From an uncultured Gemmatimonadales bacterium (GTDB lineage: Bacteria; Gemmatimonadota; Gemmatimonadetes; Longimicrobiales; RSA9), in NCBI GenBank assembly GCA_963708135.1, contig OY970192.1:1824001-1888000 (forward strand): a stretch of 64,000 nucleotides of DNA, written 5' to 3'. Shown piece after piece: positions 4,482-30,879 of the stretch; position 1 is the first letter of the stretch, and the number at the start of each line of letters is the position of its first letter. Under the pieces are notes generated by a model. That model was given only the letters and a program-made list of their open reading frames with translations, was not told where the DNA came from and ran no database searches. A program made the translations under genes and the position numbers.

Positions 4482-4582
4482 GTGTGGGCTTGGGTGTGGG
4501 CCGCCAGGTCCGGCGCTGACGGCCGGCGCGTTGTCCCGCTCCGCCATGGTGGTGCCCCGGGTCTCGTCGAACCCTCCGGGGC

Positions 4583-6163: not shown

Positions 6164-6274
6164 ACGGCCAGGTGCGCCCGGCAACCGCTACAGGCGCCAG
6201 GTCACACCCACATCCGATGCCGAATCGACCGGAACCTCCACCCAATCCCGCTCGCCCGCCCATCACCCCCACCC

Positions 6275-6304
6275 TTGACCCGGCGAAACCACCCCGCCTA
6301 TCCT
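6275..6304 (+). promoter_or_regulatory. Putative outward-facing sigma70 promoter in the oriIS region (present in all four copies)
   Basis: TTGACC-N18-TATCCT about 40 bp inside the right end. Confidence 0.55.
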
Positions 6305-6344
6305 ACCGAAAGCAGCCGAAACGGCGTTTGGATTTCCTATCCCT

Positions 6345-9032: not shown

Positions 9033-9262
9033 CACGATCCGTGCGTATTCCGGCCGAATCCGTCCAGTGATTCCGGTCGAAGCCGGCCACCGATTCCGGA
9101 CCATTCCGTCCACCCGTTCCGGAGCAATCCGTCCACCGATTCCGGGGATTCCGTCCTGCCATTCCGGCGGAATCCGTCCACCCTTGGGGGAGCGAAGCCG
9201 ACGCTGGATGACCTGAACCAGACCAGCCGCCACCTTGTGCGGGTCCTGAACCCGGAGGAGAG

Positions 9263-10834: not shown

Positions 10835-11581
10835 CGCACCAGACCCTCGACCAGCTCCACGAGCTCCGCCTCACCGGCATGGCCCAGGCCCTGGAAGAAC
10901 AGAATGCGCATGCCCGACGTCGAGAGCCTCGCCTTCGACGACCGTCTGGCCCTCCTCCTGGAACGGGAGATCACCTTCCGCGACGACCGGCGCCTCACCC
11001 GGCTCCTCCAGGTGGCCAAGCTCCATCTTCAAGCCGCCATCGAGGACCTCGACTTCCGAAGCCCTCGAGGACTGGAGCGATCCCTCATCCTGCGCCTCTC
11101 CAGCGGCCAGTGGATCCGCGACCACCAGAGCGTCCTGATCTCCGGCGCCACGGGCACCGGCAAGAGCTTCCTGGCCTGCGCCCTCGGTCACAGCGCCTGC
11201 CGCCAGGGCCTGTCCACCCGCTACTACCGCTTCTCCCGGCTCCTCGGAGAGCTGGCTCTGGCCCGGGCCGACGGCTCCTACGCCAAGCTCCTCGACCGCC
11301 TGGCCAAGACCCAACTCCTCATCCTCGATGACTTCGGCCTCGCTCCACTCACCGACTCCGAGCGCCGTGATCTCCTCGAGGTCCTCGAAGACCGCTACGG
11401 CCGACGCGCCACCCTCGTCACCAGCCAGCTGCCCGTCGAGCACTGGCACGCGGTCATGGGAGACGCCACATTCGCCGACGCCATCCTGGATCGGCTCGTC
11501 CACAACGCCCACACCATCACCCTGAAAGGAGCATCCATGCGGCGGAAGAAGAATCAGACCCCCGCCGTCGCCGAGTCCTGA
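10828..11581 (+). pseudogene. istB: IstB with a +1 frameshift near 10903 (real or sequencing error)
   Basis: MLTHQTLDQLHELRLTGM in one frame; GATGTGKS, LILDDFG, TSQLP, LDRLVHNA in another; extra A in CAGAATG. Confidence 0.85.
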
Positions 11582-11704
11582 ACACGCCAGCGTCGCTTCG
11601 CTCCGACCGGGTGGACGGCATGGACCGGAACGGGTGGACGGCTTGCGCCGGAACCGCTGGACGGCTTCCTCCGGAACTCGTGGACGGAATCACCGGAATA
11701 GGCA

Positions 11705-11844
11705 CGATCCGCCCGGACGAGCTGAGAGCGGCGTTCACCGCCGCCGGTGGATGGAGTATCGCCGAGCTGAGCGCGGAGCGCATCGAGACGCGATTTCACG
11801 ACAACGGCGCACCGGCCTGGTTGGCGACCATCCAAAGGATTTAG
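11705..11844 (+). pseudogene. C-terminal fragment of a class I SAM methyltransferase (first few bases at 9033-9041)
   Basis: IRPDELRAAF...IETRFHDNGAPAWLATIQRI*; family recalled from similar C-termini. Confidence 0.55.
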
Positions 11845-11941
11845 GCGTGCGTGGGCGCGCGCCGGCGGACCTGGCAGCGCCTCGGCGGACCCTCGCGCGT
11901 GCAGCACCGCCGAGCGGCCCTTGGTGGCGCCGGCGGCCTCC

Positions 11942-12103
11942 TCAGTCCTGCGGCGCCATCGGCAGCTCGCGCACGTGCCGGCCCGTGAGCGCGAACCAGG
12001 CGTTGGTGAGCGCCGGGGCGGCGGGTGGGAGGCCCGGCTCGCCGACCCCCCCCGGGTCCTCGCGGCTGTCCACGATGTGCACGTCGATCTCGGGCGCCTC
12101 CAG
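11942..12103 (-). pseudogene. C-terminal fragment of a xanthine dehydrogenase-family (IorB-like) molybdopterin subunit
   Basis: EAPEIDVHIVDSREDPGGVGEPGLPPAAPALTNAWFALTGRHVRELP; cut exactly at the tmRNA-like block. Confidence 0.9.
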
Positions 12104-12128
12104 TGGAGCCGGCGGGAGTCGAACCCGC
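12104..12128 (-). repeat. 25-bp copy of the tmRNA 3' end (T-arm, acceptor strand, discriminator)
   Basis: GCGGGTTCGACTCCCGCCGGCTCCA identical to 30515-30539 and 23761-23785. Confidence 0.97.
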
Positions 12129-12288
12129 ACCAGATCCCCCACCCCCGGATCGCGATTCGCCAGTAACCGCAACAACTATGAGCGGTTTCGACCGTCGGGG
12201 TGTGGGCCGCCAGGTCCGGCGCTGACGGCCGGCGCGTTGTCCCGCTCCGCCATGGTGGTGCCCCGGGTCTCGTCGAACCCTTCGGGGC

Positions 12289-13869
12289 ATGCCCACCGTC
12301 GCACGCCCCCGATCCGTTTGGGTCCCGCCGCAGGCGCAGGCGCACCGCCCAGGGCACTCCGCAACGCCACCCGCCCAGGCCGCCGTTTACCGCCGACGAC
12401 GGCCCACGGCCACGCCCCTCTACCCCATCGTCCAGCACCACATCGAGGGCTTCCTGGCCCGGGCCGCCGAAGCCGATCCCTGGGGCGAGGGCGTGGCCGG
12501 CTGGGTCGAGGCCGACTTCCGGGCCTACCTCCGCTGCGGCATCCTGGCCCACGGCTTCGCCCGCGTCCGCTGTGACGACTGCGCCGCCGAGCGCCTCGTC
12601 GCCTTCTCCTGCAAGGGCCGCGGCGTCTGCCCCTCCTGCAACGCCCGCCGGATGGTCGAGGTCGCCGCGCACCTGAACAACGCCGTCCTGCCGCCGCTCC
12701 CGATCCGCCAATGGGTCCTCTCCGTCCCGAAGCGGATCCGCCCCTTCTTCCACCACGATCCCGCCCTTGCCGGCGCCGTGCTCCGGATCCTGCTCCGGGC
12801 CGTCCGCACCCGCCTGCGTCACGGCAGTCCCGGTGCCGGCCCGGACGCGCAGATCGGCGCCGTCTCCTTCCTCCACCGCTTCGGCTCCGCCCTCAATCCC
12901 CACTTCCACTTCCACGTCGTGGTTCTCAATGGCGTCTTCACCGGGACCGTGGACGGCGAGGTCCGCTTCGATGAGGCGACCCACTTTTCCGCCGACGACG
13001 CCTCCGCCCTCACGCCCATCCTCCAGCGCCGCATCCTGCGCCTCTTCCAACGCCGCGGCCTCCTCGAGGAGCACACGGTGAACGACATGCTCACCTGGCA
13101 GGGCACCGGCGGCTTCAGCCTCGACGCCTCCGTCCGCATCCACGGCGCCGACCGGGCCGGCCGCGAGCGCCTCCTCCGCTACTGCGCCCGGCCGCCGTTT
13201 GCCCTCGATCGCCTGCGGATCGAGCGTCAGTCCGGAGGGCGGGCCGACGACGACGCGGGGGTCCGCCGCGTGTTCTACCGACCCTCCCGGCCCACCTCCG
13301 ACGGACGCGCTCTCCTCGCCCTCTCACCCCTCCAGTTTCTGGAAGCACTTTCCCAGCTGATCCCGCCGCCCCGGGTTCACCGCCACCGCTACCACGGCGT
13401 TCTCGCCCCCAACGCACGGCTCCGGCCCCGGGTCGTCGCCCTCGAACGCGACGCAGAGGCCCACGCGGACGAAGCCCACGGCGAGGGGCCCGGGGTCCAC
13501 ACCTACAACGAGCCCGCTACCACCCTCACCGGCGCCGCCGCCCGCTCCCGCTGGGCCCAGCTCCTCGCCCGCATCTACGAGGTCTTCCCCCTCCGCTGCC
13601 CCGAGTGCGGCTCGCAGATGCGCATCCTCGCTTTCCTCACCGACCCCGCGCCCGTGGGCGCCATCCTCCGACATCTCGACCTGCCCCACACCACACCGCC
13701 GCTCTCCCCCGCACGCGCTCCACCCCAAGCCGCACTCGCGCTCGACGCCGAGCCCCTCGCACCCGCCGATGCCCTGCCCCGCGACGACTTCGACCAGACG
13801 CCCGCGTTCGATCCGGCTGACCCCGAGCCCCTACCCGAGCTCGACCTCGACCAGACCCGCGGCGCCTGA
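12289..13869 (+). CDS. IS91/ISCR-family rolling-circle transposase
   Basis: 526 aa, same motifs as copy 1. Confidence 0.95.
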   Translation: MPTVARPRSVWVPPQAQAHRPGHSATPPAQAAVYRRRRPTATPLYPIVQHHIEGFLARAAEADPWGEGVAGWVEADFRAYLRCGILAHGFARVRCDDCAAERLVAFSCKGRGVCPSCNARRMVEVAAHLNNAVLPPLPIRQWVLSVPKRIRPFFHHDPALAGAVLRILLRAVRTRLRHGSPGAGPDAQIGAVSFLHRFGSALNPHFHFHVVVLNGVFTGTVDGEVRFDEATHFSADDASALTPILQRRILRLFQRRGLLEEHTVNDMLTWQGTGGFSLDASVRIHGADRAGRERLLRYCARPPFALDRLRIERQSGGRADDDAGVRRVFYRPSRPTSDGRALLALSPLQFLEALSQLIPPPRVHRHRYHGVLAPNARLRPRVVALERDAEAHADEAHGEGPGVHTYNEPATTLTGAAARSRWAQLLARIYEVFPLRCPECGSQMRILAFLTDPAPVGAILRHLDLPHTTPPLSPARAPPQAALALDAEPLAPADALPRDDFDQTPAFDPADPEPLPELDLDQTRGA

Positions 13870-14052
13870 ACGGCCAGGTGCGCCCGGCAACCGCTACAGG
13901 CGCCAGGTCACACCCACATCCAATGCCGAATCGACCGGAACCTCCACCCAATCCCGCTCGCCCGCCCATCACCCCCACCCTTGACCCGGCGAAACCACCC
14001 CGCCTATCCTACCGAAAGCAGCCGAAACGGCGTTTGGATTTCCTATCCCTGA

Positions 14053-14241
14053 CGAGCTCACCGAGAGTATTTACATTTTGGATCGCCCAAGATATCGCCT
14101 CCACCTCAAACAAATGATGCGGGTGTTCTCAACAACTGGAAGCTAGAGGCAGTTAAGCAGCTTCAGACACTCATTGAAAAGGAATACGGAAAGACCTTGG
14201 AAACCCTTCTTATCCACCTTGCGAAGAGTTTGCATGAGTAG
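14053..14241 (+). pseudogene. Low-GC ORF tail truncated by the copy 3 oriIS
   Basis: Open frame ...NNWKLEAVKQLQTLIEKEYGKTLETLLIHLAKSLHE* with no visible start upstream. Confidence 0.5.
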
Positions 14242-14294
14242 CTATTCCTTCTATTGCCGCCTGAGGCAAAACACAAAATCATAGGGGAGGAAAC

Positions 14295-14681
14295 TTGAGC
14301 GATCGGGAGCAGGTTGTCGTAAAGACGTACAAGGGAAGGGAATCGAAAGCCGCAGAGCTGTTTCAAGAAGACGCAGCGAAAATGGCATTACAGGGTTACA
14401 TTCCGACATCGCAGAGTTGGGCTCCGGGTGCCTATGGGTGCGGCTCCTTCCTCTTCGCGCTGCTACTGTGCTTTGTCCTGATCGGATTCTTGGTTTTCAT
14501 TTACATGCTGCTGGTTAAGCCGGACGGAACACTTTCTGTAACGTACGAGCTGCGAATCGAAGTGCAAGGCTCGAAGCAATCTGCTCCAACCGCGGAAAAG
14601 ACATGCCCAAAGTGTGCGGAAAACGTAAAGGCGGCAGCTACTGTTTGTCGCTTCTGCGGACACAACTTCGAGCCGGCCTAA
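14295..14681 (+). CDS. Membrane protein with a C-terminal zinc ribbon; integron cassette ORF
   Basis: GGAGG RBS, TM segment, CPKCAENVKAAATVCRFCG; stop codon lies inside the attC inverse core. Confidence 0.85.
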   Translation: MSDREQVVVKTYKGRESKAAELFQEDAAKMALQGYIPTSQSWAPGAYGCGSFLFALLLCFVLIGFLVFIYMLLVKPDGTLSVTYELRIEVQGSKQSAPTAEKTCPKCAENVKAAATVCRFCGHNFEPA

Positions 14682-14736
14682 CAAGGCCATGCAGGCGACG
14701 TCCGAAGACGCACGCGCCTGATGGCCGGCGTTAGGG
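14676..14736 (+). other. Integron attC site (about 61 bp)
   Basis: Inverse core GCCTAAC, core GTTAGGG, inner GCCATGCAGGCG / CGCCTGATGGC pairing with one extrahelical G. Confidence 0.85.
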
Positions 14737-14894
14737 TTACAACAATGAAGCGTTCTCTCTGGAAACAAAGTCTTACCAAAAACTGGTGCCCTGCGTGGCC
14801 GTGCCCCGTTTGCCGAAAGGAGTCTGTAAAGCTTGTACCAAAATCACTTATATATAAAGAAAACGTCAATTCAAAACGAGCGCACAGCCATGAA

Positions 14895-16655
14895 CCTCCC
14901 GTATTCACCACGCGTAGGTTGAGCCGATTGAGCGCGTGATTTGGAATTCGGCGGCGGCGTGCGTGGCGCCCGGGCTGATTACGGGGACAGCCCCCCTTTC
15001 CCCCGGCGCGCCGCCGACGGCTCCGTGCTCCGATCGCTCCCCGCCCGAGAAGGCCTACGCTGGAGTGGGCAGGGCCAGGGCGGCGGGGGAGCCGCGGGCC
15101 GAGTAGCGCCGGCTCATTTCTCGCCAGAAGCGCTGCCACAGGTGCGCGCGGCCCGCGTCGATGACGAGCGTGAGTCGTCGGCCGCTCACCAGCACGCGTC
15201 CCGCCGCTTTGAGCACGAGTTGGCGGAAGCGCTGGCGGGTCATGACCTGACGTTCGCCGCACGAGACCAGTTCTGCGCCAGCTCTCAGCAGGTTGGCCGC
15301 GATGAGGCTCAGCAGCAGGCGCGCCTCGTTGGCGCCGAAGCTGTCGGTGTCGGGCTCGGGCGTGGCGACGCTCCGCCCGCGGTAGTGCTTCTTGGGCCGC
15401 GGCGCCGACGAGAGCGCCAGCGCCAGCGTGCTTTTCCAGTCCCCGAACTCCCGCTCGGCTTCTCCCCGCGCCCGGTAGCGCTCCAGCAGCGCCGGGCCGT
15501 CTACCTCTTCGGTGCTCGCGTTCGTGAGCAGGAAAAAATGGTCGAGGAACAGCTCCCCCTGCTCGTCCGAGCGCTCCAGCATCACGAGCACCACCCGGCG
15601 CGCATGGTCCCAGCGCCCGGCAGCATAGGTCAGCTCGTGCGTCCAGATCCGACCTTCGGCCGGCGGGTGTCCAGGCGGCCGCTTCAGGTACGGCGCCGCG
15701 AGTCTCTCCAGGCGTGCATTCCCACGCAGCCGGGCCACGTAGCGCACGCCCTCGTCCTCCAGCGTGGCCAGCAACTCGTTCTCCGGGAATCCCGCATCCA
15801 TGCGCAGCCACACCTGCTCCGCCTGCGTCTTCGCCCAGAGCACCGCGGGGACCACAAAGCCCAGCGCGCCTTGCGCCGTGTGCGCGTTTCCCTCTCGCAG
15901 CTCGGCCGCCAGGAAGTCTCCCAACTCCCAGCGCAGCACCAGCGGGTGGTAGCAGCAGCAGCCATAGTGCGCGTTCCACGAGCTGCCCGGCTGCAGCCCG
16001 TGCACTTCGACCGGCAGCGAATCCAGATCCAGCGTGACCTCCGCAACGCGCGGCGCGTTCCGGCCCCGCCGCCGCTCCGCACCCCGCAGCAGGAGCGTGG
16101 AAAGGCCCTGCCGGTTTCCCGGGTCGGCCAGCACCGCCAGGAGCCGCGACAGGGTTGGCTGAGAGGCCAGCCCGGAGGCCGCGCCCGCAGCCCCACCCCG
16201 CACCGGCGCCGTCCCCCGGCGCCGCGACACGGCCACGCGCAGCGCCGGATCGGCGCGCAGCAGGTCCGCATCCCGCTGGTCCGTCCATCCCTGCGCCAGC
16301 AGGAGCACCTGCGTGAGCATCAGCTCGAGGAAGTCGTGCGTGATCCGCGCGGGGTCGCGCGGGTCGTGCAGGTGGTGGTGGACCAGCGCCGGGAAGCCCA
16401 GCCGCTCCAGCAGCGCACGCAACAGCACCGCGCCCGCGTCCGAGGTCAGCCGCTCCGGTCGCGCCTCCACGCCCATCGAACGGTTGAAATCCAGCCGGAA
16501 AAGTGTACCTTGTTCTTCACCCATGGCGTGTTTGTCGTGTGGTCCGGAAGGATGGTTTGGTTTGCACCCCCATCTCACGGTCACACAGGCAGATGCGCCA
16601 TGGGCGCTTACGCCCTACACAACCCCTCCACTAACCCGCTCGTGAATACGGCAGG
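14895..16655 (-). mobile_element. IS1380-family element, copy A (1761 bp)
   Basis: IRs CCTCCCGTATTCAC / GTGAATACGGCAGG; 5-bp target duplication ATGAA. Confidence 0.95.
15055..16524 (-). CDS. IS1380-family DDE transposase
   Basis: LTSDAG, LASQPTLSR, LDLDS, WNAHYG..CYHPL, LRMDAGF, YRARGEAE. Confidence 0.95.
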   Translation of the reverse strand: MGEEQGTLFRLDFNRSMGVEARPERLTSDAGAVLLRALLERLGFPALVHHHLHDPRDPARITHDFLELMLTQVLLLAQGWTDQRDADLLRADPALRVAVSRRRGTAPVRGGAAGAASGLASQPTLSRLLAVLADPGNRQGLSTLLLRGAERRRGRNAPRVAEVTLDLDSLPVEVHGLQPGSSWNAHYGCCCYHPLVLRWELGDFLAAELREGNAHTAQGALGFVVPAVLWAKTQAEQVWLRMDAGFPENELLATLEDEGVRYVARLRGNARLERLAAPYLKRPPGHPPAEGRIWTHELTYAAGRWDHARRVVLVMLERSDEQGELFLDHFFLLTNASTEEVDGPALLERYRARGEAEREFGDWKSTLALALSSAPRPKKHYRGRSVATPEPDTDSFGANEARLLLSLIAANLLRAGAELVSCGERQVMTRQRFRQLVLKAAGRVLVSGRRLTLVIDAGRAHLWQRFWREMSRRYSARGSPAALALPTPA

Positions 16656-16684
16656 ATGAAGCATGGGACCCTGATTGGATTGAA

Positions 16685-18445
16685 CCTCCCGTATTCACCA
16701 CGCGTAGGTTGAGCCGATTGAGCGCGTGATTTGGAATTCGGCGGCGGCGTGCGTGGCGCCCGGGCTGATTACGGGGACAGCCCCCCTTTCCCCCGGCGCG
16801 CCGCCGACGGCTCCGTGCTCCGATCGCTCCCCGCCCGAGAAGGCCTACGCTGGAGTGGGCAGGGCCAGGGCGGCGGGGGAGCCGCGGGCCGAGTAGCGCC
16901 GGCTCATTTCTCGCCAGAAGCGCTGCCACAGGTGCGCGCGGCCCGCGTCGATGACGAGCGTGAGTCGTCGGCCGCTCACCAGCACGCGTCCCGCCGCTTT
17001 GAGCACGAGTTGGCGGAAGCGCTGGCGGGTCATGACCTGACGTTCGCCGCACGAGACCAGTTCTGCGCCAGCTCTCAGCAGGTTGGCCGCGATGAGGCTC
17101 AGCAGCAGGCGCGCCTCGTTGGCGCCGAAGCTGTCGGTGTCGGGCTCGGGCGTGGCGACGCTCCGCCCGCGGTAGTGCTTCTTGGGCCGCGGCGCCGACG
17201 AGAGCGCCAGCGCCAGCGTGCTTTTCCAGTCCCCGAACTCCCGCTCGGCTTCTCCCCGCGCCCGGTAGCGCTCCAGCAGCGCCGGGCCGTCTACCTCTTC
17301 GGTGCTCGCGTTCGTGAGCAGGAAAAAATGGTCGAGGAACAGCTCCCCCTGCTCGTCCGAGCGCTCCAGCATCACGAGCACCACCCGGCGCGCATGGTCC
17401 CAGCGCCCGGCAGCATAGGTCAGCTCGTGCGTCCAGATCCGACCTTCGGCCGGCGGGTGTCCAGGCGGCCGCTTCAGGTACGGCGCCGCGAGTCTCTCCA
17501 GGCGTGCATTCCCACGCAGCCGGGCCACGTAGCGCACGCCCTCGTCCTCCAGCGTGGCCAGCAACTCGTTCTCCGGGAATCCCGCATCCATGCGCAGCCA
17601 CACCTGCTCCGCCTGCGTCTTCGCCCAGAGCACCGCGGGGACCACAAAGCCCAGCGCGCCTTGCGCCGTGTGCGCGTTTCCCTCTCGCAGCTCGGCCGCC
17701 AGGAAGTCTCCCAACTCCCAGCGCAGCACCAGCGGGTGGTAGCAGCAGCAGCCATAGTGCGCGTTCCACGAGCTGCCCGGCTGCAGCCCGTGCACTTCGA
17801 CCGGCAGCGAATCCAGATCCAGCGTGACCTCCGCAACGCGCGGCGCGTTCCGGCCCCGCCGCCGCTCCGCACCCCGCAGCAGGAGCGTGGAAAGGCCCTG
17901 CCGGTTTCCCGGGTCGGCCAGCACCGCCAGGAGCCGCGACAGGGTTGGCTGAGAGGCCAGCCCGGAGGCCGCGCCCGCAGCCCCACCCCGCACCGGCGCC
18001 GTCCCCCGGCGCCGCGACACGGCCACGCGCAGCGCCGGATCGGCGCGCAGCAGGTCCGCATCCCGCTGGTCCGTCCATCCCTGCGCCAGCAGGAGCACCT
18101 GCGTGAGCATCAGCTCGAGGAAGTCGTGCGTGATCCGCGCGGGGTCGCGCGGGTCGTGCAGGTGGTGGTGGACCAGCGCCGGGAAGCCCAGCCGCTCCAG
18201 CAGCGCACGCAACAGCACCGCGCCCGCGTCCGAGGTCAGCCGCTCCGGTCGCGCCTCCACGCCCATCGAACGGTTGAAATCCAGCCGGAAAAGTGTACCT
18301 TGTTCTTCACCCATGGCGTGTTTGTCGTGTGGTCCGGAAGGATGGTTTGGTTTGCACCCCCATCTTACGGTCACACAGGCAGATGCGCCATGGGCGCTTA
18401 CGCCCTACACAACCCCTCCACTAACCCGCTCGTGAATACGACAGG
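16685..18445 (-). mobile_element. IS1380-family element, copy B
   Basis: Near-identical to copy A, with its own 5-bp target duplication TTGAA. Confidence 0.95.
16845..18314 (-). CDS. IS1380-family DDE transposase
   Basis: Same protein as copy A. Confidence 0.95.
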   Translation of the reverse strand: MGEEQGTLFRLDFNRSMGVEARPERLTSDAGAVLLRALLERLGFPALVHHHLHDPRDPARITHDFLELMLTQVLLLAQGWTDQRDADLLRADPALRVAVSRRRGTAPVRGGAAGAASGLASQPTLSRLLAVLADPGNRQGLSTLLLRGAERRRGRNAPRVAEVTLDLDSLPVEVHGLQPGSSWNAHYGCCCYHPLVLRWELGDFLAAELREGNAHTAQGALGFVVPAVLWAKTQAEQVWLRMDAGFPENELLATLEDEGVRYVARLRGNARLERLAAPYLKRPPGHPPAEGRIWTHELTYAAGRWDHARRVVLVMLERSDEQGELFLDHFFLLTNASTEEVDGPALLERYRARGEAEREFGDWKSTLALALSSAPRPKKHYRGRSVATPEPDTDSFGANEARLLLSLIAANLLRAGAELVSCGERQVMTRQRFRQLVLKAAGRVLVSGRRLTLVIDAGRAHLWQRFWREMSRRYSARGSPAALALPTPA

Positions 18446-19054
18446 TTGAATACACATTTACCGCCTGGGCGGAATGCGGACATCAATCTTGTAAACAGCA
18501 GTTTGCAATAGCTGGCGTAGGTGGCGTCTCACCTGAACAGACTGAGGACGGGTTTGAGTGGGAGGACTACTTCGCACCTCAAATCTGCCAACCCATGCCA
18601 GATATGTTGGATTTTCCAAAAAAATGTCCGGACGAAGTCAAAGAAGAACTCCGAGCGGCATTTGGGCTCTTCTGGTCGCACCAAGCTGCCTGTGCTGGTC
18701 GGATTCGCGTTTCCCTTGAGTGCCTGATGAACCACTTAGGTTAGGCATACCAAAACGAAAGAAAGATAAGAACGGAAAATATTTTGACTTATCTTATCTC
18801 TCCATGCGCGCATTGATGTCTTTGCAAAAGCAGAGCCGAATGTAGGTTCACATCTAATGGCGCTGAAATGGTTAGGAAACGCTGGAAGTCACAATGGAGA
18901 AGTCAGGAAAGACGACTTGCTGGATGCGTTCGAAATTATGGAGCATGCGCTAGTTGAGATCATAGACAAGCGCTCGGCCAAAGTTGCTGCCCTAGCCAAA
19001 AAAATTACAAAAAAACATGGTCGATAGAAACTCTACCTTGTCACTCAACCGGAC

Positions 19055-19447
19055 GTGTCACTCGTCGCGGGGCATCTGGAGGCGCACGTCCCGCCAGGCA
19101 CGCGGCTCACCCTGGCCGGCGACAGCTACGGCGCGCGCGCGGCCTCCATCGCGCCCGATCATTTTGCACTGCAGGCCGCCGACGCGGCGCTCCACGCCGT
19201 CTACGGCGTGCACCCGCTCGTAGTGCGCTCGGGCGGCACGGTGCCCATCGCCGAGCTCTTTCAGCGGCATCTCGGGTTGGACACCGTGTTCTTTTCCTTC
19301 AGCACGGCCGACGAGGACTTCCACGCTCCCAACGAGTTCTTCCGCGTGCACCGGCTGCACGAAGGGCTCGAGGCGTGGGCGCGCTACTGGGAGATTCTAG
19401 GCGAGCGGGGATCCAGCTCGCCAGGAGCGCCACCCCGGGGCGGCTGA
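19055..19447 (+). pseudogene. C-terminal fragment of an M20 dipeptidase
   Basis: RSGGTVPI, DEDFHAPNEFF; abrupt GC jump at the 5' junction. Confidence 0.85.
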
Positions 19448-19467
19448 AGGTTGAAGGAGCACGGCGG

Positions 19468-20460
19468 CTATCGGCTGACGAACTTCAGGAGCTGGCGCCC
19501 TCCGGTGTCGGCCAGGTAGACGACGCTGTCGCCCTGCACCGCGAGTGCGTGCGCCGTCACGACGTTGGCGGCCGTGGCCGGAATGTGGTCCACCTCGCGG
19601 AGATCGCGGTCGAGCATCACCACGAGGTCCGCCCCACCTTTCACCGCGAGGTACAGGCGCCCGCTCTCGCTCACGGCCACGTCGAAGACGCGCCCGGCGC
19701 TCCGGCCCGGCCGCCCCTCGCGCGGCCACTCCCCCAGATACGTGCCCGTGGTGTCGAACACCTGCAGACGCGCGTTCTCCCGGTCGGCCACGTAGACGCG
19801 GTCGAGTCCGCCCACCGCGATGCCGTGGGGGACGTGGAACTCACCTGGGTCTGCCCCCTCGTGGCCCCACTCGCGCACGAAGGCGCCCGTCCGGTCGAAG
19901 CGTGCCACTCGCGCGTTGATGTAACCGTCGCTCACGTAGAACGAGCCGTCGGCGCAGACGAACACGTCCGTCGGCTGATCGAAGTGCGTCGCGTCCCACC
20001 CCGGCGCGCGCCGGTGGCCGATCGTGCGAACGGGTGCGCCGTCGTGCGAGAACTCGAGCACCTGCTGCCGGCCGACGTCGGTCAGCCAGACGTTGTCGTC
20101 GGCGTCAACCGTCAGCGAATGCGGCACGAGGAACATCCCGGCGCCCCAGGAGTGCAGCAGCGCTCCGGTGACCGCGTCGAGCTCGAGCACCGTCGGCGCG
20201 GTGATTGGCTGCGTGGCCGTCGGCTCGAAGCTTCGCCCCGCCCGGTGGAACAGCAGCACATGACCGTGCGAGTCCAGCGCCACGCCCGAGACTTCACCGA
20301 GGCGCAGGCCGGGGGCAAGGCGTGGCCAACCCTCCACGCGCTTCCAGCGGGAAGTCGGTGCGCCCGACGCTGCGTGGCCCGGCTGCGGCGGTCGCGTAGG
20401 GCCATGCGGCCCGAGGGCCAGACATCCGGCGAGCAGAAGAGCTTTGCGGCTGCCAGGCAT
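19468..20460 (-). CDS. NHL-repeat peptidyl-alpha-hydroxyglycine alpha-amidating lyase-like protein
   Basis: Signal peptide; FLVPHSLTVD, FDQPTDV, VSDGYINARV, VADRENARLQVF. Confidence 0.9.
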   Translation of the reverse strand: MPGSRKALLLAGCLALGPHGPTRPPQPGHAASGAPTSRWKRVEGWPRLAPGLRLGEVSGVALDSHGHVLLFHRAGRSFEPTATQPITAPTVLELDAVTGALLHSWGAGMFLVPHSLTVDADDNVWLTDVGRQQVLEFSHDGAPVRTIGHRRAPGWDATHFDQPTDVFVCADGSFYVSDGYINARVARFDRTGAFVREWGHEGADPGEFHVPHGIAVGGLDRVYVADRENARLQVFDTTGTYLGEWPREGRPGRSAGRVFDVAVSESGRLYLAVKGGADLVVMLDRDLREVDHIPATAANVVTAHALAVQGDSVVYLADTGGRQLLKFVSR

Positions 20461-20563
20461 CGGTCAGAGTCTCCCTTGCAGTACGTCAACGACGGCGGGC
20501 GGCGCGCATTCGCGCTCGACCACGCAGGGATGGGCGTGATCCGCGTCCAGCTCTTCGGTCACG

Positions 20564-20745
20564 CTAGCGACTTCCCATTTCGAGTTTGCGGCGCAGCTCC
20601 TCACGCCAGTTGAGCGCGACCACGATGTCGCGGTCGCGCTGGGCCGCGTCGCGCACGACGACGAAGCCCTTGCCGTCCGGGCGCACATCGAACCCGCCCA
20701 GCAGGCAGCTGAGGTTCGCGAACCGGTCCGTGCCGGCAGCATTGT
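20564..20745 (-). pseudogene. Probable C-terminal tail of a TolB-repeat (Ser/Thr kinase-type) protein
   Basis: FDVRPDGKGFVVVR...IVVALNWREELRRK* pattern; no 5' part. Confidence 0.55.
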
Positions 20746-20975
20746 CAATATGGGCCGAACGACCTCGGTCGGAACAGGGCGTTCCTCCTTGCTTCGCTCG
20801 CCCCAGGCCGCGTCGCGTCAAATGCTGTGACCGGTACGGCGAGATCGTCACCGGGATCCTGACGGCCGCGCACGGTACCGCATGAGGAGGCAAGGATCAT
20901 TCGACCGGGAATCCGATGGCGGCGGTTCGGCTCGATCGCCAGGGCGCGCGCGCGGCTGCCCGCCGCAGCGCGATC

Positions 20976-21013
20976 TTGCACTGCGGTAATCACCATGGTA
21001 ATATGACCATGGA
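20976..21013 (+). promoter_or_regulatory. Toxin-antitoxin promoter with two ACCATGG operator-like repeats
   Basis: TTGCAC-N17-TAATAT; CCATGG palindromes flank the -10 box. Confidence 0.65.
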
Positions 21014-21033
21014 CACCATTCGAGAGCTTTATT

Positions 21034-21345
21034 ATGGCGAAGAAGAAGATCTCGGAAGCAGCCGTGGCGCCCTTCGCGCCAACCGGGGCGCCGCACACCG
21101 TGCAGGCCAGCACGTTCAAGGCGACGTGTCTCGAATTGATGGACGAAATCGAAGCGAGCGGATTCGAGGTCGTCGTCACCAAGCACGGCCGCCCCGTGGT
21201 GAAGGTGGGACCGGTGGAGCCGAGCGTCCCTTCTCCGTTGGGGTTTCTGCGCGGGACCGTCGTGGATGAGGGAGACTTGGTGAGCCCCGACCACGACGCA
21301 TGGAGCGAGGCGGTGGCGGACCCGCTCCACACGGATCGGAAGTAG
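21034..21345 (+). CDS. Phd/YefM-family antitoxin
   Basis: ASTFKATCLELMDEI...VVVTKHGRPVVKV. Confidence 0.9.
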   Translation: MAKKKISEAAVAPFAPTGAPHTVQASTFKATCLELMDEIEASGFEVVVTKHGRPVVKVGPVEPSVPSPLGFLRGTVVDEGDLVSPDHDAWSEAVADPLHTDRK

Positions 21346-21776
21346 TGGCGACCGTGCGCGCGGTGCGCGAGCGGCCCCAGCGCCGGCCGCGGCGCGCGCG
21401 CGCACCAAAGCGCGTGGCGGGTTCGGTGCTCTGGCGCGCGGTGGAGGAACCGGAGCGCGAAGACGCCCTGCTCCTGGACACGCACGTGTGGCTGTGGACG
21501 CTCGCCGGCACCACGGAGCGACTGGCCGCGCAGGCGGTCGCGCTCGTGCAGTCAGCCGCGGCCGCCGGCCGCCTCTACGTGAGCGACATTTCCTTCTGGG
21601 AGGTGTCGCTCAAGGCATCGAAACGGAAGCTGACGCTGGTGATCGATCCCACCCTCTGGCTCGAGCGCGCCGCGCGGGCACCGGGCATTCGCGCGCTGCC
21701 GCTCGCGCGCGAGGTGCTGATCCAGAGCACGCGCCTTCCGGGCGCTATGCACGGCGATCCCGCCGACCGCATGCTC
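21345..21776 (+). pseudogene. PIN/VapC toxin, C-terminally truncated
   Basis: LLLDTHVWLW, SFWEV, HGDPADRML, then unrelated sequence. Confidence 0.85.
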
Positions 21777-21861
21777 TGCAGTGGACATTGCGCGCGGAGG
21801 ATAAGGTAGGCGCCACCTACAGGCTCACGGACACGAATCCCGTCCGCAGACATTAGCGAAA

Positions 21862-21893
21862 GCCCCCCGACCAACGGTCGGGGGGTTTTTTTT
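21862..21893. terminator. Intrinsic terminator hairpin, likely bidirectional
   Basis: CCCCCCGACC-AAC-GGTCGGGGGG followed by T8. Confidence 0.85.
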
Positions 21894-21905
21894 AAAAAAT
21901 ATTTT

Positions 21906-22811
21906 CAGTACTGTCCGGTTAAGCTGAGATGATGATGCCGTAACGGATTGCTACGTGGTGCGTTACGACGTTTTGGTTGCCGCACCGATTTGAACTTCGC
22001 TGCTGCGCCGCTATCCTGCCCGGACCCCCCGGCCGGAGTGGCGCATGAATCCCGGAAGCACGGTTTTCTCACAGGTGATGGCCCACGCATCTCGCTTCGC
22101 GCTCGATCGGTGCATCCGCCGCTACCACGGCAACCGGAGGGTCCGACGTTTCTCGTGTCGGGACCAGTTCCTCGCCATGGCCTTTGCCCAGCTCACCTAC
22201 CGGGAGAGCCTGCGGGACCTCGAGGCCACCCTCGGGGCGGCCCCCGAGAAGCTGTACCATCTTGGCTTCCGTTCGCCGCTCTCTCGCAGCACGCTCGCCG
22301 ATGCGAACGAGAATCGCGACTGGCGCATCTACGCCGATTTCGCTCAACGCCTGATCGCAGACGCGCGTCGGCTCTACGCCGACGACACGTTGGGGATCGA
22401 GCTCACGAACACCGTCTACGCGCTGGATTCCACCACGATCGACCTGTGTTTGGACCAACGACGTCGCGCTGCCCGCCGTTACCGTGGCCGAGCTCTACCG
22501 CCTGCGGTGGCAGATCGAGCTCTTCTTCAAATGGATCAAGCAGCACCTCAGGATCAAGCGCTTCTTCGGCACGAGCGCGAACGCTTTGCGCACGCAGATC
22601 TGGATCGCGATCAGCGTTTACGTCCTCGTCGCGATCGTCCGCAAGCGGCTCCGGATCGAGCGCGAACTCTACACAATTCTACAGATCCTGAGCGTCTATG
22701 CGTTCGAGAAAGCCCCTCTCGCACAAGTACTTACGCGTTCGGCCTACACCCCCGAAGTCCCCTCCGATCGTAACCAGTTGTCGCGCTTCAACTTATAACC
22801 GGACACTACTG
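21906..22811 (+). mobile_element. Internally deleted IS4-family element (906 bp)
   Basis: IRs CAGTACTGTCCGGTTA / TAACCGGACACTACTG; 9-bp target duplication AAATATTTT; transposase N-part (22045 to about 22452) joined out of frame to the C-part YRLRWQIELFFKWIKQ. Confidence 0.93.
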
Positions 22812-22826
22812 AAATATTTTCTAAAT

Positions 22827-23507
22827 TTACTTTTCTTCCTCGCCTTTTTCTTTCTTTTCTTTCTTCTCTTCCTTTTCTTCGCCTTCCTCGCCTTCGGCTT
22901 CCTCTTTGCCTTCCTTCTTCACGCCCTCAACGGCTTCTTCGAGATCTACCTCGGTCGGCTGGGCCAATTCTGCTTCGAGCTCTTCTTCGGACTTCGGCGG
23001 CTGGACGGCGGCGACGGTCATCTCCGGATCATCCACCAGAATCTCCACCTTACTGTGGTCCACCGGCAAATCCTTGACGCGGATGGCGTCCTCGAAATTT
23101 TTCAAAGCCGAAATATCCACGACAATCTCCGAAGGCAGGTCGCCCGGCAAGCTCTCGACTTCGACTTCATAAAGAGTCGGCACGAAAGTGCCCTGCAGTT
23201 CTTTGACCGCCGGAGATTCGCCGACGAATTCGATCGGCACGGTGGCCGTCAGTTTTTCCGCCATATTCACCTGGTAAAAATCCACGTGCGTAATCTGGCC
23301 TCGGGTGATGTGCTTCTGAATGTCTTGGATCAAGACCTTGACCGGCTCGGTCTCCCCCACTTGCAGGCCGACGATAGTGCTCTCGCCGGCGTCACGATAG
23401 ATTTTTTCAAAATCACCCGCCGGCACGGACAAGGAACGCGCCTCGATCCCGTGCCCGTACAGAACCCCGGGGATATAGCCGGCGTGGCGAAGTCCTTTCG
23501 CTTTTTC
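22827..23507 (-). pseudogene. rplY: 5'-truncated ribosomal protein L25/TL5 (Ctc) of foreign origin
   Basis: LRHAGYIPGVLYG, HVDFYQV, VPIEFVGESPAVK, LPSEIVVDISAL, acidic/Lys tail; lower GC than host genes. Confidence 0.9.
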
Positions 23508-23598
23508 TGGGCGCGCGCCGGCGGACCTGGCAGCGCCTCGGCGGACCCTCGCGCGTGCAGCACCGCCGAGCGGCCCTTGGTGGCGCCGGGCGGCCTCC

Positions 23599-23760
23599 TC
23601 AGTCCTGCGGCGCCATCGGCAGCTCGCGCACGTGCCGGCCCGTGAGCGCGAACCAGGCGTTGGTGAGCGCCGGGGCGGCGGGTGGGAGGCCCGGCTCGCC
23701 GACCCCCCCCGGGTCCTCGCGGCTGTCCACGATGTGCACGTCGATCTCGGGCGCCTCCAG
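23599..23760 (-). pseudogene. Second copy of the molybdopterin oxidoreductase C-terminal fragment
   Basis: Matches 11942-12103. Confidence 0.9.
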
Positions 23761-23785
23761 TGGAGCCGGCGGGAGTCGAACCCGC
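23761..23785 (-). repeat. 25-bp copy of the tmRNA 3' end
   Basis: Identical to 30515-30539. Confidence 0.97.
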
Positions 23786-23945
23786 ACCAGATCCCCCACC
23801 CCCGGATCGCGATTCGCCAGTAACCGCAACAACTATGAGCGGTTTCGACCGTCGGGGTGTGGGCCGCCAGGTCCGGCGCTGACGGCCGGCGCGTTGTCCC
23901 GCTCCGCCATGGTGGTGCCCCGGGTCTCGTCGAACCCTTCGGGGC

Positions 23946-25526
23946 ATGCCCACCGTCGCACGCCCCCGATCCGTTTGGGTCCCGCCGCAGGCACAGGCGC
24001 ACCGCCCAGGGCACTCCGCAACGCCACCCGCCCAGGCCGCCGTTTACCGCCGACGACGGCCCACGGCCACGCCCCTCTACCCCATCGTCCAGCACCACAT
24101 CGAGGGCTTCCTGGCCCGGGCCGCCGAAGCCGATCCCTGGGGCGAGGGCGTGGCCGGCTGGGTCGAGGCCGACTTCCGGGCCTACCTCCGCTGCGGCATC
24201 CTGGCCCACGGCTTCGCCCGCGTCCGCTGTGACGACTGCGCCGCCGAGCGCCTCGTCGCCTTCTCCTGCAAGGGCCGCGGCGTCTGCCCCTCCTGCAACG
24301 CCCGCCGGATGGTCGAGGTCGCCGCGCACCTGAACGACGCCGTCCTGCCGCCGCTCCCGATCCGCCAATGGGTCCTCTCCGTCCCGAAGCGGATCCGCCC
24401 CTTCTTCCACCACGATCCCGCCCTTGCCGGCGCCGTGCTCCGGATCCTGCTCCGGGCCGTCCGCACCCGCCTGCGTCACGGCAGTCCCGGTGCCGGCCCG
24501 GACGCGCAGATCGGCGCCGTCTCCTTCCTCCACCGCTTCGGCTCCGCCCTCAATCCCCACTTCCACTTCCACGTCGTGGTTCTCGATGGCGTCTTCACCG
24601 GGACCGTGGACGGCGAGGTCCGCTTCGATGAGGCGACCCACTTTTCCGCCGACGACGCCTCCGCCCTCACGCCCGTCCTCCAGCGCCGCATCCTGCGCCT
24701 CTTCCAACGCCGCGGCCTCCTCGAGGAGCACACGGTGAACGACATGCTCACCTGGCAGGGCACCGGCGGCTTCAGCCTCGACGCCTCCGTCCGCATCCAC
24801 GGCGCCGACCGGGCCGGCCGCGAGCGGCTCCTCCGCTACTGCGCCCGGCCGCCGTTTGCCCTCGATCGCCTGCGGATCGAGCGTCAGTCCGGAGGGCGGG
24901 CCGACGACGACGCGGGGGTCCGCCGCGTGTTCTACCGACCCTCCCGGCCCACCTCCGACGGACGCGCCCTCCTCGCCCTCTCACCCCTCGAGTTTCTGGA
25001 AGCACTTTCCCGACTGATCCCGCCGCCCCGGGTTCACCGCCACCGCTACCACGGCGTTCTCGCCCCCAACGCACGGCTCCGGCCCCACGTCGTCGCCCTC
25101 CAACGCGACGCAGAGGCCCACGCGGACGAAGCCCACGGCGAGGGGCCCGGGGTCCACACCTACAACGAGCCCGCTACCACCCTCACCGGCGCCGCCGCCC
25201 GCTCCCGCTGGGCCCAGCTCCTCGCCCGCATCTACGAGGTCTTCCCCCTCCGCTGCCCCGAGTGCGGCTCGCAGATGCGCATCATCGCTTTCCTCACCGA
25301 CCCCGCGCCCGTGGGCGCCATCCTCCGACATCTCGACCTGCCCCACACCACACCGCCGCTCTCCCCCGCACGCGCTCCACCCCAAGCCGCACTCGCGCTC
25401 GACGCCGAGCCCCTCGCACCCGCCGATGCCCTGCCCCGCGACGACTTCGACCAGACGCCCGCGTTCGATCCGGCTGACCCCGAGCCCCTACCCGAGCTCG
25501 ACCTCGACCAGACCCGCGGCGCCTGA
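23946..25526 (+). CDS. IS91/ISCR-family rolling-circle transposase
   Basis: 526 aa with intact motifs. Confidence 0.95.
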   Translation: MPTVARPRSVWVPPQAQAHRPGHSATPPAQAAVYRRRRPTATPLYPIVQHHIEGFLARAAEADPWGEGVAGWVEADFRAYLRCGILAHGFARVRCDDCAAERLVAFSCKGRGVCPSCNARRMVEVAAHLNDAVLPPLPIRQWVLSVPKRIRPFFHHDPALAGAVLRILLRAVRTRLRHGSPGAGPDAQIGAVSFLHRFGSALNPHFHFHVVVLDGVFTGTVDGEVRFDEATHFSADDASALTPVLQRRILRLFQRRGLLEEHTVNDMLTWQGTGGFSLDASVRIHGADRAGRERLLRYCARPPFALDRLRIERQSGGRADDDAGVRRVFYRPSRPTSDGRALLALSPLEFLEALSRLIPPPRVHRHRYHGVLAPNARLRPHVVALQRDAEAHADEAHGEGPGVHTYNEPATTLTGAAARSRWAQLLARIYEVFPLRCPECGSQMRIIAFLTDPAPVGAILRHLDLPHTTPPLSPARAPPQAALALDAEPLAPADALPRDDFDQTPAFDPADPEPLPELDLDQTRGA

Positions 25527-26069
25527 ACGGCCAGGTGCGCCCGGCAACCGCTACAGGCGCCAGGTCACACCCACATCCGATGCCGAATCGACCGGAACCT
25601 CCACCCAATCCCGCTCGCCCGCCCATCACCCCCACCCTTGACCCGGCGAAACCACCCCGCCTATCCTACCGAAAGCAGCCGAAACGGCGTTTGGATTTCC
25701 TATCCCTCCGGCTTCCTCCACATCGGGGCGTGGCAATCATCCGTTCACGCGAAGCCGCAAAGCGCCGAAGGCAGTACACCGGTGTGTTGGGAACCTGCGT
25801 ACCGACGGCCCGTCCTGTGGCATGGATCCCAGCCATACCCGCCGAGTTCGGTTTTCTAGGTTGCGGGATTCGCGCCTTCGGCCCGTGCTGCCTTCGCGTG
25901 AACCGAGTGGAAGGACGCCCCCGAAGCCCGCGGTTGGCCGAGGGATGTCGCTCCGCCTCCTCCGCCACTCCGCGCGAACCGCGGATGTGTGAAGCGGGAC
26001 GAAGCGGGAACATGGATGCGTGCGCCGCACGGTTGCATCCTTGGCGGGACCCACTTCCGGAGAATCTTC

Positions 26070-30509: not shown

Positions 30510-30514
30510 TTCAA

Positions 30515-30879
30515 TGGAGCCGGCGGGAGTCGAACCCGCGTCCGCGAATCGATCCCTCAGTGCATCTACGTGCGTAGTCCACCGTTCTCAGTTTCTCGCT
30601 CCCTCATCGGCCGGTGGACGGCCCCGTCGGGAACCAGCCTCGCTGTGTCTCATCCGGCCGCGGCAAGGCGGCACGACCGGACCAGCCCGATTTGTCGATG
30701 CCTCTGGTCACGCCTCGGGCCCGGCCCGTCCAGAGACAGGTTGCGAAAGGTCAGACCTTACGCAGCCAGCGCCATGTTTGAGTTGGCACTTGTGATGTTT
30801 TCCCGCTGGTTTTACGAGGGCACGGGTCCTCGGCACGCGACACCGACTTCACGAAACACGTCGAAACCAGGTCGGCCCC
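30515..30879 (-). ncRNA. ssrA: tmRNA; tag reading frame ANSNMALAA* at 30787-30758; CCA not encoded
   Basis: 5' GGGGCCGACCTGGTTTCGAC, 3' GCGGGTTCGACTCCCGCCGGCTCCA, alanine G3:U pair, tag ending in LAA. Confidence 0.97.

What the first reader, a model, noticed from the sequence alone, without database searches (positions are those of the whole stretch)
14051..23760. Helitron-like chain of unrelated truncated gene fragments on the terIS side of copy 4
Seen, reading outward from the element: oxidoreductase tail, 5'-less L25 with its terminator, 3'-less VapC with Phd, a kinase-like tail, an intact NHL lyase, a 5'-less M20 peptidase, then low-GC integron cassettes cut at both ends. Junctions are abrupt and mid-gene, several come with GC shifts, and none has IRs or target duplications. 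Known: ISCR elements co-mobilise DNA beyond terIS. Inference: repeated rounds of insertion and read-through built an ordered record of short DNA pieces from several genomes, with the oldest nearest the element, like eukaryotic Helitron fragment capture. It could serve as a source of shuffled genes, a memory of foreign DNA, or have no function.
Basis: partly seen in the sequence, partly recalled or inferred. Interest (0 to 1): 0.85.

Follow-up and report, generated by a model that had tools for sequence, protein, structure and literature searches.

The report
IS91-type element dragging flanking gene scraps
A rolling-circle insertion sequence in a soil Gemmatimonadota genome has demonstrably copied bits of neighbouring genes along with itself, which probably explains part of a chain of gene scraps next to it, but this is a known behaviour of this transposon family and a third of the junctions are ordinary insertions of other mobile elements.

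Summary
Partly confirmed. The stretch lies between two same-strand copies (C, D) of a 1,948-bp IS91-family element, in an IS-saturated part of a 72% GC Gemmatimonadota chromosome.

The named fragments are real: Mo-oxidoreductase tail, 5'-cut L25, 3'-cut VapC with Phd, kinase tail, whole NHL gene and M20 tail.

Each has inverted repeats and its own target duplication. The "integron cassettes" are one 1.4-kb low-GC block with no attC-like sites.

Read-through capture is shown for the inner layers:
- A 251-bp oxidoreductase block is identical upstream of copies 0, C and D, whose further neighbours differ.
- Copy C carries 149 bp more. This is the tail of a methyltransferase gene that is intact only at copy 0.
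- Copy C landed exactly at copy B's right end.

For the outer layers (L25 to the low-GC block) there is no second copy, so serial capture stays an inference. The missing halves of M20, VapC and this L25 are nowhere in the genome. The L25 piece is Patescibacteria-like.

Nothing points to a function. Flank capture by IS91/ISCR elements is known, so this is a new member of a known kind.

The parts
4492..6344 (+). IS91-family copy A. It lacks the first 95 bp of the element, so it has no left end.
7766..9032 (+). IS91-family copy B. It is 5'-truncated and has an internal 448-bp tandem duplication. Its right end is intact.
9042..11704 (+). IS21-family element (istA/istB) with 7-bp target duplication CGATCCG. 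It inserted into the first bases of copy C's flank. Removing it joins copy B's right end directly to that flank.
11705..11851 (+). Tail of a class I SAM methyltransferase gene (stop at 11845). It is identical to the 3' end of the intact gene next to copy 0, and is carried by copy C only.
11852..12102 (-). Oxidoreductase block at copy C: the 3' tail of a molybdopterin (MoCoBD) oxidoreductase gene plus 90 bp downstream. It is cut by the IS left end.
12103..14050 (+). IS91-family copy C, full length (1,948 bp). The transposase gene is at 12289-13869. The left end equals the last 26 nt of the tmRNA gene in reverse complement. The right end (...TTTCCTATCCCT) is the one shared by all five copies.
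14051..14894 (.). Low-GC block B1, left part. It holds an ORF tail, a zinc-ribbon (UPF0547) ORF at 14265-14681, and the start of a DUF4145-type gene from 14745.
14895..16655 (-). IS1380-like insertion 1 (Pfam DDE_Tnp_1_4), with inverted repeats and target duplication ATGAA.
16685..18445 (-). IS1380-like insertion 2. It is an independent event with target duplication TTGAA.
18446..19053 (+). Low-GC block B1, right part. It holds the rest of the DUF4145-type gene, which is frameshifted between 18741 and 18788 and stops at 19027.
19054..19447 (+). M20 peptidase tail, about the last 130 aa. The 5' part is absent from the whole genome.
19468..20460 (-). NHL-repeat beta-propeller gene, full length.
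20567..20698 (-). 44-aa C-terminal tail of a Ser/Thr kinase-propeller type gene. It is 64% identical to the end of a 905-aa ORF elsewhere in the genome.
21034..21345 (+). Phd/YefM-type antitoxin gene.
21429..21780 (+). VapC (PIN) gene, cut after ...DPADRML. About 30 C-terminal residues are missing.
21781..21905 (.). DNA downstream of the L25 gene, with a 9-bp GC hairpin and a T8 run. It is contiguous with 22813 onward once the IS4-like insertion is removed.
   Evidence: The scan did not list this hairpin.
21906..22812 (+). IS4-like element (DUF4372 + DDE_Tnp_1) with a 416-bp internal deletion and 8-bp target duplication AATATTTT.
22830..23507 (-). Foreign L25/Ctc gene lacking about 20 N-terminal codons. 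It is 35% identical to the genome's own L25, and its best named relatives are Patescibacteria.
23508..23759 (-). Oxidoreductase block at copy D, matching without a substitution those at copies 0 and C.
23760..25707 (+). IS91-family copy D ('copy 4'), full length.

Best explanation
The stretch is the spacer between two same-strand copies of a 1,948-bp IS91-family rolling-circle insertion sequence, in a region crowded with transposons.

About 4.4 kb of it is three later, ordinary insertions of other IS types.

The remaining ~5.3 kb is a series of unrelated DNA blocks. The block next to the element is a 251-bp oxidoreductase gene tail. It demonstrably travels with the element: transposition starts at the fixed right end, runs through the element, and sometimes fails to stop at the left end, so flanking DNA is copied too (one-ended transposition).

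Copy C was made this way from the copy-0 locus. It took 149 bp of a methyltransferase gene with it and landed exactly at the right end of copy B.

By extension (inferred, not shown), the outer blocks upstream of copy D are layers left by earlier insert-then-read-through cycles, or are target DNA cut by such insertions. These blocks are the 5'-cut foreign L25, the 3'-cut VapC with Phd, the kinase tail-NHL-M20 tail group, and the low-GC block.

The chain is a by-product of transposition with no function of its own.
For: SHOWN
1. Five copies share an exact right end but have different left ends. Some are shorter than the canonical element (A, B) and some are longer (0, C, D).
2. The canonical left end is fixed by six elements from four genomes, whose homology all starts at the same base.
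3. The flank shows 0 differences in 251 bp among copies 0, C and D, and 0 in 149 bp between 0 and C. The DNA beyond it differs: an intact methyltransferase gene at copy 0, copy B's end at C, and L25 at D.
4. The IS21 element has a 7-bp target duplication. Removing it puts C's flank directly against B's last base.
5. There are no terminal inverted repeats and no target duplication, as in the IS91 family.

SUPPORTING THE EXTENSION
6. The missing parts of M20 and VapC and the missing N-terminus of the foreign L25 are found nowhere in the 5.4-Mb genome, nor within 100 kb.
7. The L25 5' end is not to the right of copy D.
8. The methyltransferase and oxidoreductase tails are not neighbours in the 3 relatives' loci examined.
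9. Host IS copies with target duplications sit inside both low-GC blocks, so these blocks are truly in this genome.
10. In the related genome G269, three copies also share one right end with varying left ends, and a 94-bp mini-copy abuts a right end.
11. In all 8 of 8 contigs with more than one transposase match, the matches lie on one strand within about 25 kb.
12. Read-through rates of 1-14% for IS91 and IS1294 are in print (PMC13181058, passages read).
Against: - The outer blocks exist only once, so no nesting test is possible. No DNA match to the L25 block was found in 72 family genomes, and the closest metagenome locus is only 48% identical.
- Copy 0's last ~450 bp differ from all other copies by 15-33%. 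The present copy 0 is therefore not a simple parent of C, and a later recombination must be assumed.
- Copy D's left end (251 bp) could be an ordinary early stop inside the 400-bp flank rather than an older unit.
- Blocks B2 and B3 have host-like GC3 (0.81-0.87) and give DNA matches to family relatives. They could be native DNA in place.
- In run X1, the one listed contig that reaches the low-GC/M20 junction is 99.8% identical over 19054-20064, but its first 109 letters do not fit the window. That junction is not confirmed, and a variant exists in the sample.
- I found no conserved target tetranucleotide beside the right ends.
- Copy B is 5'-truncated, so not every unit is a read-through product.
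Confidence: 0.6

Rival explanations
1. Only the 251-400 bp flank is IS91 cargo. The rest of the chain is local DNA of an IS graveyard or horizontally acquired patch. It was broken up by deletions and rearrangements that left no IS at the junctions, and copy D merely inserted beside it.
For: - The 50 kb around the finding hold IS4, IS256-fragment, IS5/IS1182-like, 2 IS21, 2 IS1380-like, 2 IS4-like and 5 IS91 copies.
- Blocks B2 and B3 have host-like GC3 and give DNA matches to family relatives.
- A contig in run X1 that is 99.8% identical to B2 continues differently left of 19054, as an intact native M20 gene would.
- No second copy of any outer block exists.
Against: - It needs four or five separate deletions, each leaving a short gene scrap with no IS at the junction.
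- It does not explain why L25 is cut exactly where the mobile 251-bp unit begins while its 5' end is absent to the right of copy D and from the whole genome.
- Read-through by this very element is shown 12 kb away.
Confidence: 0.3
2. Assembly chimera: the low-GC blocks or some junctions were mis-joined in a metagenome-derived assembly.
For: - The genome is held at 76% of sampled words by a soil metagenome run.
- The listed short contigs bridge no low-GC junction, and one contig diverges at 19054.
- CheckM-type contamination is 3.14%.
Against: - IS copies identical to other copies of this genome sit inside both low-GC blocks, with clean 5-bp and 8-bp target duplications.
- The junctions lie in unique sequence, not at repeats.
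- Only 8 of 107 laid X1 records were listed, so absence of a bridging contig proves nothing.
Confidence: 0.06
3. A functional system: integron-like cassettes, a store of foreign DNA, or a gene-shuffling device.
For: None beyond the layout.
Against: - No attC-like pairs and no integrase among the ORFs I scanned against Pfam in the region.
- No repeats other than the IS copies.
- Most pieces are tails without starts. One gene is frameshifted and split by two IS copies.
Confidence: 0.02

Closest known systems
IS91, IS801, IS1294 (IS91 family) one-ended transposition
   Same: - Y2 HUH transposase with the IS91 zinc-binding domain.
- No inverted repeats and no target duplication.
- Fixed right (oriIS) end about 180 bp after the transposase stop codon.
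- Variable left ends, with flank DNA copied when termination fails.
- Sources: PMC13181058 and PMC5737581, passages read.
   Different: - The host is an environmental Gemmatimonadota bacterium.
- The transposase is at most 67% identical to the nearest locus found.
- There is no orf121.
- The left end is the 3' end of the tmRNA gene.
- No clear CTTG/GTTC-type target was seen beside the right end.
ISCR elements ('gene-capturing systems') of complex class 1 integrons and resistance islands
   Same: - IS91-like transposase.
- Truncated foreign gene remnants stacked on the terIS side.
- Same-orientation repeats of the element with cargo in between. This point is recalled from the ISCR literature; only search listings and passages of PMC6218425 and PMC13393415 were seen.
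   Different: - No resistance genes and no integron context.
- A recognisable left end exists here.
- The parent and daughter loci are both preserved in one chromosome.
Eukaryotic Helitrons (gene-fragment capture)
   Same: Rolling-circle HUH transposon. Read-through at one end picks up host gene fragments, and truncated and tandem copies occur (PMC4778049, abstract seen in the listing).
   Different: No Rep-helicase protein. In Helitrons the bypassed terminator hairpin is at the 3' end (abstract of PMC4778049), while here the bypassed end lies upstream of the transposase gene. This is an analogy of outcome, not family membership.

Membership tests
IS91 family | Transposase with Y2 HUH (Y2_Tnp) and IS91 zinc-binding domains | tested here: met
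   PF04986 E=4.8e-23 and PF14319 E=2e-17, both above the curated cut-offs.
IS91 family | No terminal inverted repeats | tested here: met
   none of the 25 longest listed of 82 inverted pairs joins 12103-12140 with 14010-14050.
IS91 family | No target-site duplication | tested here: met
   the bases left and right of each copy are unrelated.
IS91 family | Functionally distinct ends: a constant oriIS end downstream of the transposase gene, and a terIS end that can be bypassed (one-ended transposition) | tested here: met
   five copies have identical right ends. The flanks of 251 and 400 bp are identical in sequence. The parent gene is intact at copy 0.
IS91 family | Conserved target tetranucleotide (CTTG/GTTC type) next to oriIS | tested here: inconclusive
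   the bases after ...CCCT are CGCA, TCGA, CACG, GACG and CCGG. If the element ends two bases earlier they read CTNN. There is no empty site to decide.
Integron gene cassettes | attC recombination sites and an IntI integrase nearby | tested here: not met
   0 core-site pairs in the three low-GC pieces (shuffles gave 0.06-0.14); none of the ORFs scanned against Pfam in the region matched an integrase.
Helitron | Rep-helicase (RepHel) protein | tested here: not met
   only Y2_Tnp, Zn_Tnp_IS91 and a weak TrwC match. No helicase domain.
IS1380 family (the two insertions at 14895-18445) | DDE_Tnp_1_4 transposase, terminal inverted repeats, 4-5 bp target duplication | tested here: met
   PF13701 E=3e-74; inverted repeats CCT(C/G)CCGTATTCAC, and target duplications ATGAA and TTGAA. 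The link from this Pfam family to IS1380 is recalled.

The most novel reading that the evidence does not exclude
The chain is a true itinerary. A unit made of the IS plus its 251-bp Gemmatimonadota flank once sat inside the L25 gene of a Patescibacteria-like (CPR) organism. It copied out the L25 tail by read-through and came back, then repeated this in other loci. The stack would then record DNA traffic between a soil Gemmatimonadota bacterium and a possible episymbiont. The element's use of a tmRNA 3' end as its stop signal would be part of how such units are built.
Probability: 0.15. Interest if true: 0.7.

Novelty: new member of a known kind. Interest (0 to 1): 0.4.

Why it matters
One-ended transposition of IS91-type elements is mostly known from plasmid assays and from resistance islands of clinical bacteria.

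Here a free-living soil bacterium preserves three things in one chromosome:
- the parent locus, with its methyltransferase gene intact;
- a daughter copy carrying 149 bp of that gene;
- a second daughter carrying only the inner 251 bp.

This is a clean natural record of the mechanism in a little-studied phylum. It shows that such elements scatter dead gene tails, which annotators may mistake for pseudogenes of the host. One of these tails is a ribosomal protein gene fragment from a distant lineage.

The finding does not reveal a new kind of system.

Tried and rejected
- Integron cassettes: no attC-like pairs. Rejected.
- Simple insertion of copy D into L25: the L25 5' end is not to the right of D. 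Rejected.
- Simple insertion into VapC or M20: the missing halves are absent within 100 kb and from the whole genome.
- Synteny of M20, NHL and Phd-VapC in 40 relatives: each piece matched a different genome or contig, so this gave no information on native order.
- Donor of L25: the metagenome scan gave at most 48% identity, and no family genome matched. The best protein hit is 68% identical and unnamed.
- Plasmid collection search with the low-GC block: one 174-bp match at 71% identity to a zinc-ribbon gene. Uninformative.
- Atlas look-ups of the zinc-ribbon ORF and the DUF4145 piece: weak leads only, commonest phylum Pseudomonadota.
- Genome-contig search for the transposase: one 67%-identical locus, too distant to define the ends. 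The ends were defined instead from five loci of three family genomes.
- The idea that the first 95 bp and the tmRNA-like 26-mer are flank rather than part of the element: rejected, because six elements in four genomes start there. No full tmRNA gene lies beside the five relatives' elements.
- Reads: only short contigs of 3 runs from one study were available. No RNA holder was listed. No contig listed in table 8 bridges a low-GC junction, and most records were not shown.
- Folding of the element's ends: small hairpins, no better than shuffles (z -0.1 to -1.7).
- The terminator scan did not list the GC hairpin plus T8 at 21866-21897 that is visible in the sequence.
- Earlier notes of this scan: none on this region.
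Full report
SETTING

The window is bases 1824001-1888000 of a single-contig 5.45-Mb genome with 72% GC. The nearest related transposase locus comes from a Gemmatimonadaceae MAG.

The finding lies in a stretch of about 50 kb that is crowded with insertion sequences. These are IS4, an IS256 fragment, an IS5/IS1182-like element, two IS21, two IS1380-like, two IS4-like and five IS91-family copies.

THE ELEMENT

The repeated element encodes a 526-aa protein with Y2_Tnp and Zn_Tnp_IS91 domains. All five copies lie on the + strand:
- copy 0, at genome 1814393-1816760, just left of the window;
- A, at 4492-6344;
- B, at 7766-9032;
- C, ending at 14050;
- D, ending at 25707.

All five end in the same bases...GGATTTCCTATCCCT, about 180 bp after the transposase stop codon. 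The DNA to their right differs in every case.

The left end was fixed by comparison with relatives. Five elements in three other family genomes (G357 twice, G445 twice, G309), together with copy C, start their homology at the same base, window 12103. The full element is therefore 12103-14050, or 1,948 bp.

There are no terminal inverted repeats and no target duplication. Copy A lacks the first 95 bp. Copy B lacks more and has an internal tandem duplication.

About 4.4 kb of the 9.7 kb is three ordinary insertions of other IS types.

Two IS1380-like copies (DDE_Tnp_1_4, E=3e-74) lie at 14895-16655 and 16685-18445. They have the same inverted repeats as three other copies in the genome. Each has its own 5-bp duplication, ATGAA and TTGAA, so they are two independent hits 19 bp apart.

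One IS4-like copy (DUF4372 + DDE_Tnp_1) lies at 21906-22812. It has a 416-bp internal deletion and the 8-bp duplication AATATTTT. Seven other copies exist in the genome.

Removing these insertions joins 14051-14894 to 18446-19053 into one low-GC block. A DUF4145-type reading frame runs across the join. Removal also joins the L25 stop codon to a GC hairpin with a T8 run at 21866-21897.

The low-GC block has no attC-like core-site pairs, and none of the ORFs I scanned against Pfam in the region matched an integrase. It is not a set of integron cassettes.

WHAT IS CONFIRMED

After removing the three IS insertions, the blocks run as follows, reading outward from copy D.
1. 23508-23759: the 3' tail of a molybdopterin oxidoreductase gene plus 90 bp downstream. 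The IS left end cuts it.
2. About 21781-23507: an L25/Ctc gene on the minus strand with its downstream DNA. It lacks about 20 N-terminal codons.
3. About 20700-21780: Phd plus a VapC that stops matching its relatives after ...DPADRML, about 30 residues short. One of the three comparator loci, L020, is from an unpublished genome. L018 and L021 give the same result.
4. 19054-20698: an M20 peptidase tail, a whole NHL gene and a 44-aa kinase tail. The NHL length comparison rests partly on L019, which is from an unpublished genome.
5. The 1.4-kb low-GC block.

The compositional jumps are extreme. Only 16 of 21,782 windows of 500 bp have GC below 55%. They form 8 regions, and 3 of those are these blocks. 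The only two windows below 52% are both in the low-GC block.

PROOF OF READ-THROUGH CAPTURE FOR THE INNER LAYERS

Copies 0, C and D share the 251-bp oxidoreductase block with 0 differences in 251 bp. Copies 0 and C share a further 149 bp with 0 differences in 149. Beyond these flanks the three copies have different neighbours.

The 149 bp are the last codons of a class I SAM methyltransferase gene. At copy 0 that gene is complete and in frame, colinear with 219-aa and 270-aa homologues in two relatives. At copy C only the tail is present.

The IS21 element next to C (9042-11704) has a 7-bp target duplication. Taking it out places the first base of C's flank directly after the last base of copy B.

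So a unit of 400 bp of flank plus the IS was copied from the copy-0 locus and inserted exactly at the right end of a resident copy. This is one-ended transposition as described for IS91 and IS1294, where termination fails in 1-14% of events (PMC13181058, passages read; PMC5737581, passages read).

The methyltransferase and oxidoreductase tails are not neighbours in the three relatives' loci examined. Copy D's left end falls 7 bp after the methyltransferase stop codon. Two readings fit this. Either a 251-bp-plus-IS unit is older and inserted twice, once behind the methyltransferase gene and once into L25, or D's left end is an early stop inside the 400-bp flank. The data do not decide.

THE OUTER LAYERS ARE INFERENCE

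Points in favour of serial capture:
- The 5' part of M20, the 3' end of VapC and the N-terminus of the foreign L25 are found neither within 100 kb nor anywhere in the genome.
- The L25 5' end is not on the other side of copy D.
- The L25 piece is only 35% identical to the genome's own L25, which sits beside prs at 880 kb. Its best hits are 68% and 61% identical and unnamed. Of 12 hits with a taxon name among the best 120, 10 are Patescibacteria, and one further top-10 cluster contains a Doudnabacteria protein. No DNA match was found in 72 family genomes.
- Host IS copies with clean target duplications sit inside both low-GC blocks. This argues that these blocks really are in this genome.

Points against, or open:
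- None of the outer blocks has a second copy, so the nesting test cannot be applied.
- Blocks 3 and 4 have host-like codon GC and give DNA matches of 67-74% identity to genes in family relatives.
- In metagenome run X1, a contig that is 99.8% identical over 19054-20064 has 109 further bases that do not fit the window left of 19054. A variant without the low-GC junction therefore exists in the sample, and that junction is not confirmed by the listed contigs.
- Copy 0's last ~450 bp differ by 15-33% from all other copies, so recombination among copies must also have occurred.
- No target consensus was recognisable.

WIDER PATTERN

Of 301 Gemmatimonadota genomes searched (G000 included), 32 have a match to the transposase. 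On all 8 of 8 contigs with two or more matches, the matches lie on one strand within about 25 kb.

In G269, three copies share one right end with different left ends, and a 94-bp mini-copy abuts a right end.

This fits rolling-circle elements that start at a fixed end and stop early, on time or late. It may also reflect insertion next to resident right ends, or a strand bias of HUH enzymes. I did not separate these explanations.

VERDICT

Read-through capture is shown for the first 251-400 bp. It is plausible but unproven for the rest. Half of the junctions are unrelated IS insertions. Nothing suggests a function.

Flank capture by IS91/ISCR elements is established, so this is a new member of a known kind. 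It comes with an unusually clear natural parent-and-daughter record and a curious Patescibacteria-like L25 scrap.

Noticed in passing
window 12103-12128 and 23760-23785, compared with the tmRNA gene at 30512-30879 (minus): The first 26 nt of the IS91-family element are the reverse complement of the last 26 nt of the genome's own tmRNA gene (35 of 38 matched when the flank is included). Rfam gives partial tmRNA hits at both copies. The same start is seen in six elements from four genomes, with no full tmRNA gene beside the five relatives' elements. It may be an old captured ssrA end that now serves as the stop signal.
   Followed up: partly
L001 (genome 1814393-1816760), copy 0: Copy 0 is a hybrid. 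Its first ~1,900 bp are 99-100% identical to copies C and D. Its last ~450 bp differ by 15-33% from all other copies, yet it ends in the same 15 bases. This looks like recombination with a diverged relative.
   Followed up: partly
G269:C8 (L023/L024), G288:C3, G282:C19, G261:C2, G003:C112, G267:C250, G289:C281: In every contig with more than one IS91-like match (8 of 8, including G000), the copies lie on the same strand within about 25 kb. G269 has 94-bp and 38-bp mini-copies of the right end directly after a full right end.
   Followed up: partly
window 14890-18450: Two IS1380-like copies, 99.8% identical, inserted 19 bp apart in the same orientation, each with its own target duplication. This is a very local hot spot inside the lowest-GC DNA of the genome.
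   Followed up: yes
window 19054, run X1: A metagenome contig is 99.8% identical to 19054-20064, but its first 109 bases do not fit the window. A co-occurring variant has other DNA, perhaps the intact M20 gene, left of this point.
   Followed up: no
window 4175-4393 (minus) and 4394-4491: Upstream of the truncated copy A lies a 65-aa DUF819 gene tail. It is separated from the IS by 98 bp of unassigned DNA. This is another orphan gene tail on the left side of a copy.
   Followed up: no
L001 14780-18354 (genome 1818780-1822354): Two subtilase (Inhibitor_I9 + Peptidase_S8) reading frames, split over several frames, lie between an IS4-like and an IS5-like element. They are probably decaying genes in the same IS-rich region.
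   Followed up: no
genome 3071751-3075500 and 3092001-3092500: Three of the five other regions with GC below 55% lie within about 20 kb of an IS1380-like copy (3087849-3089620) and an IS21-like copy (3084521-3086146). This may be a second IS-rich foreign patch.
   Followed up: no
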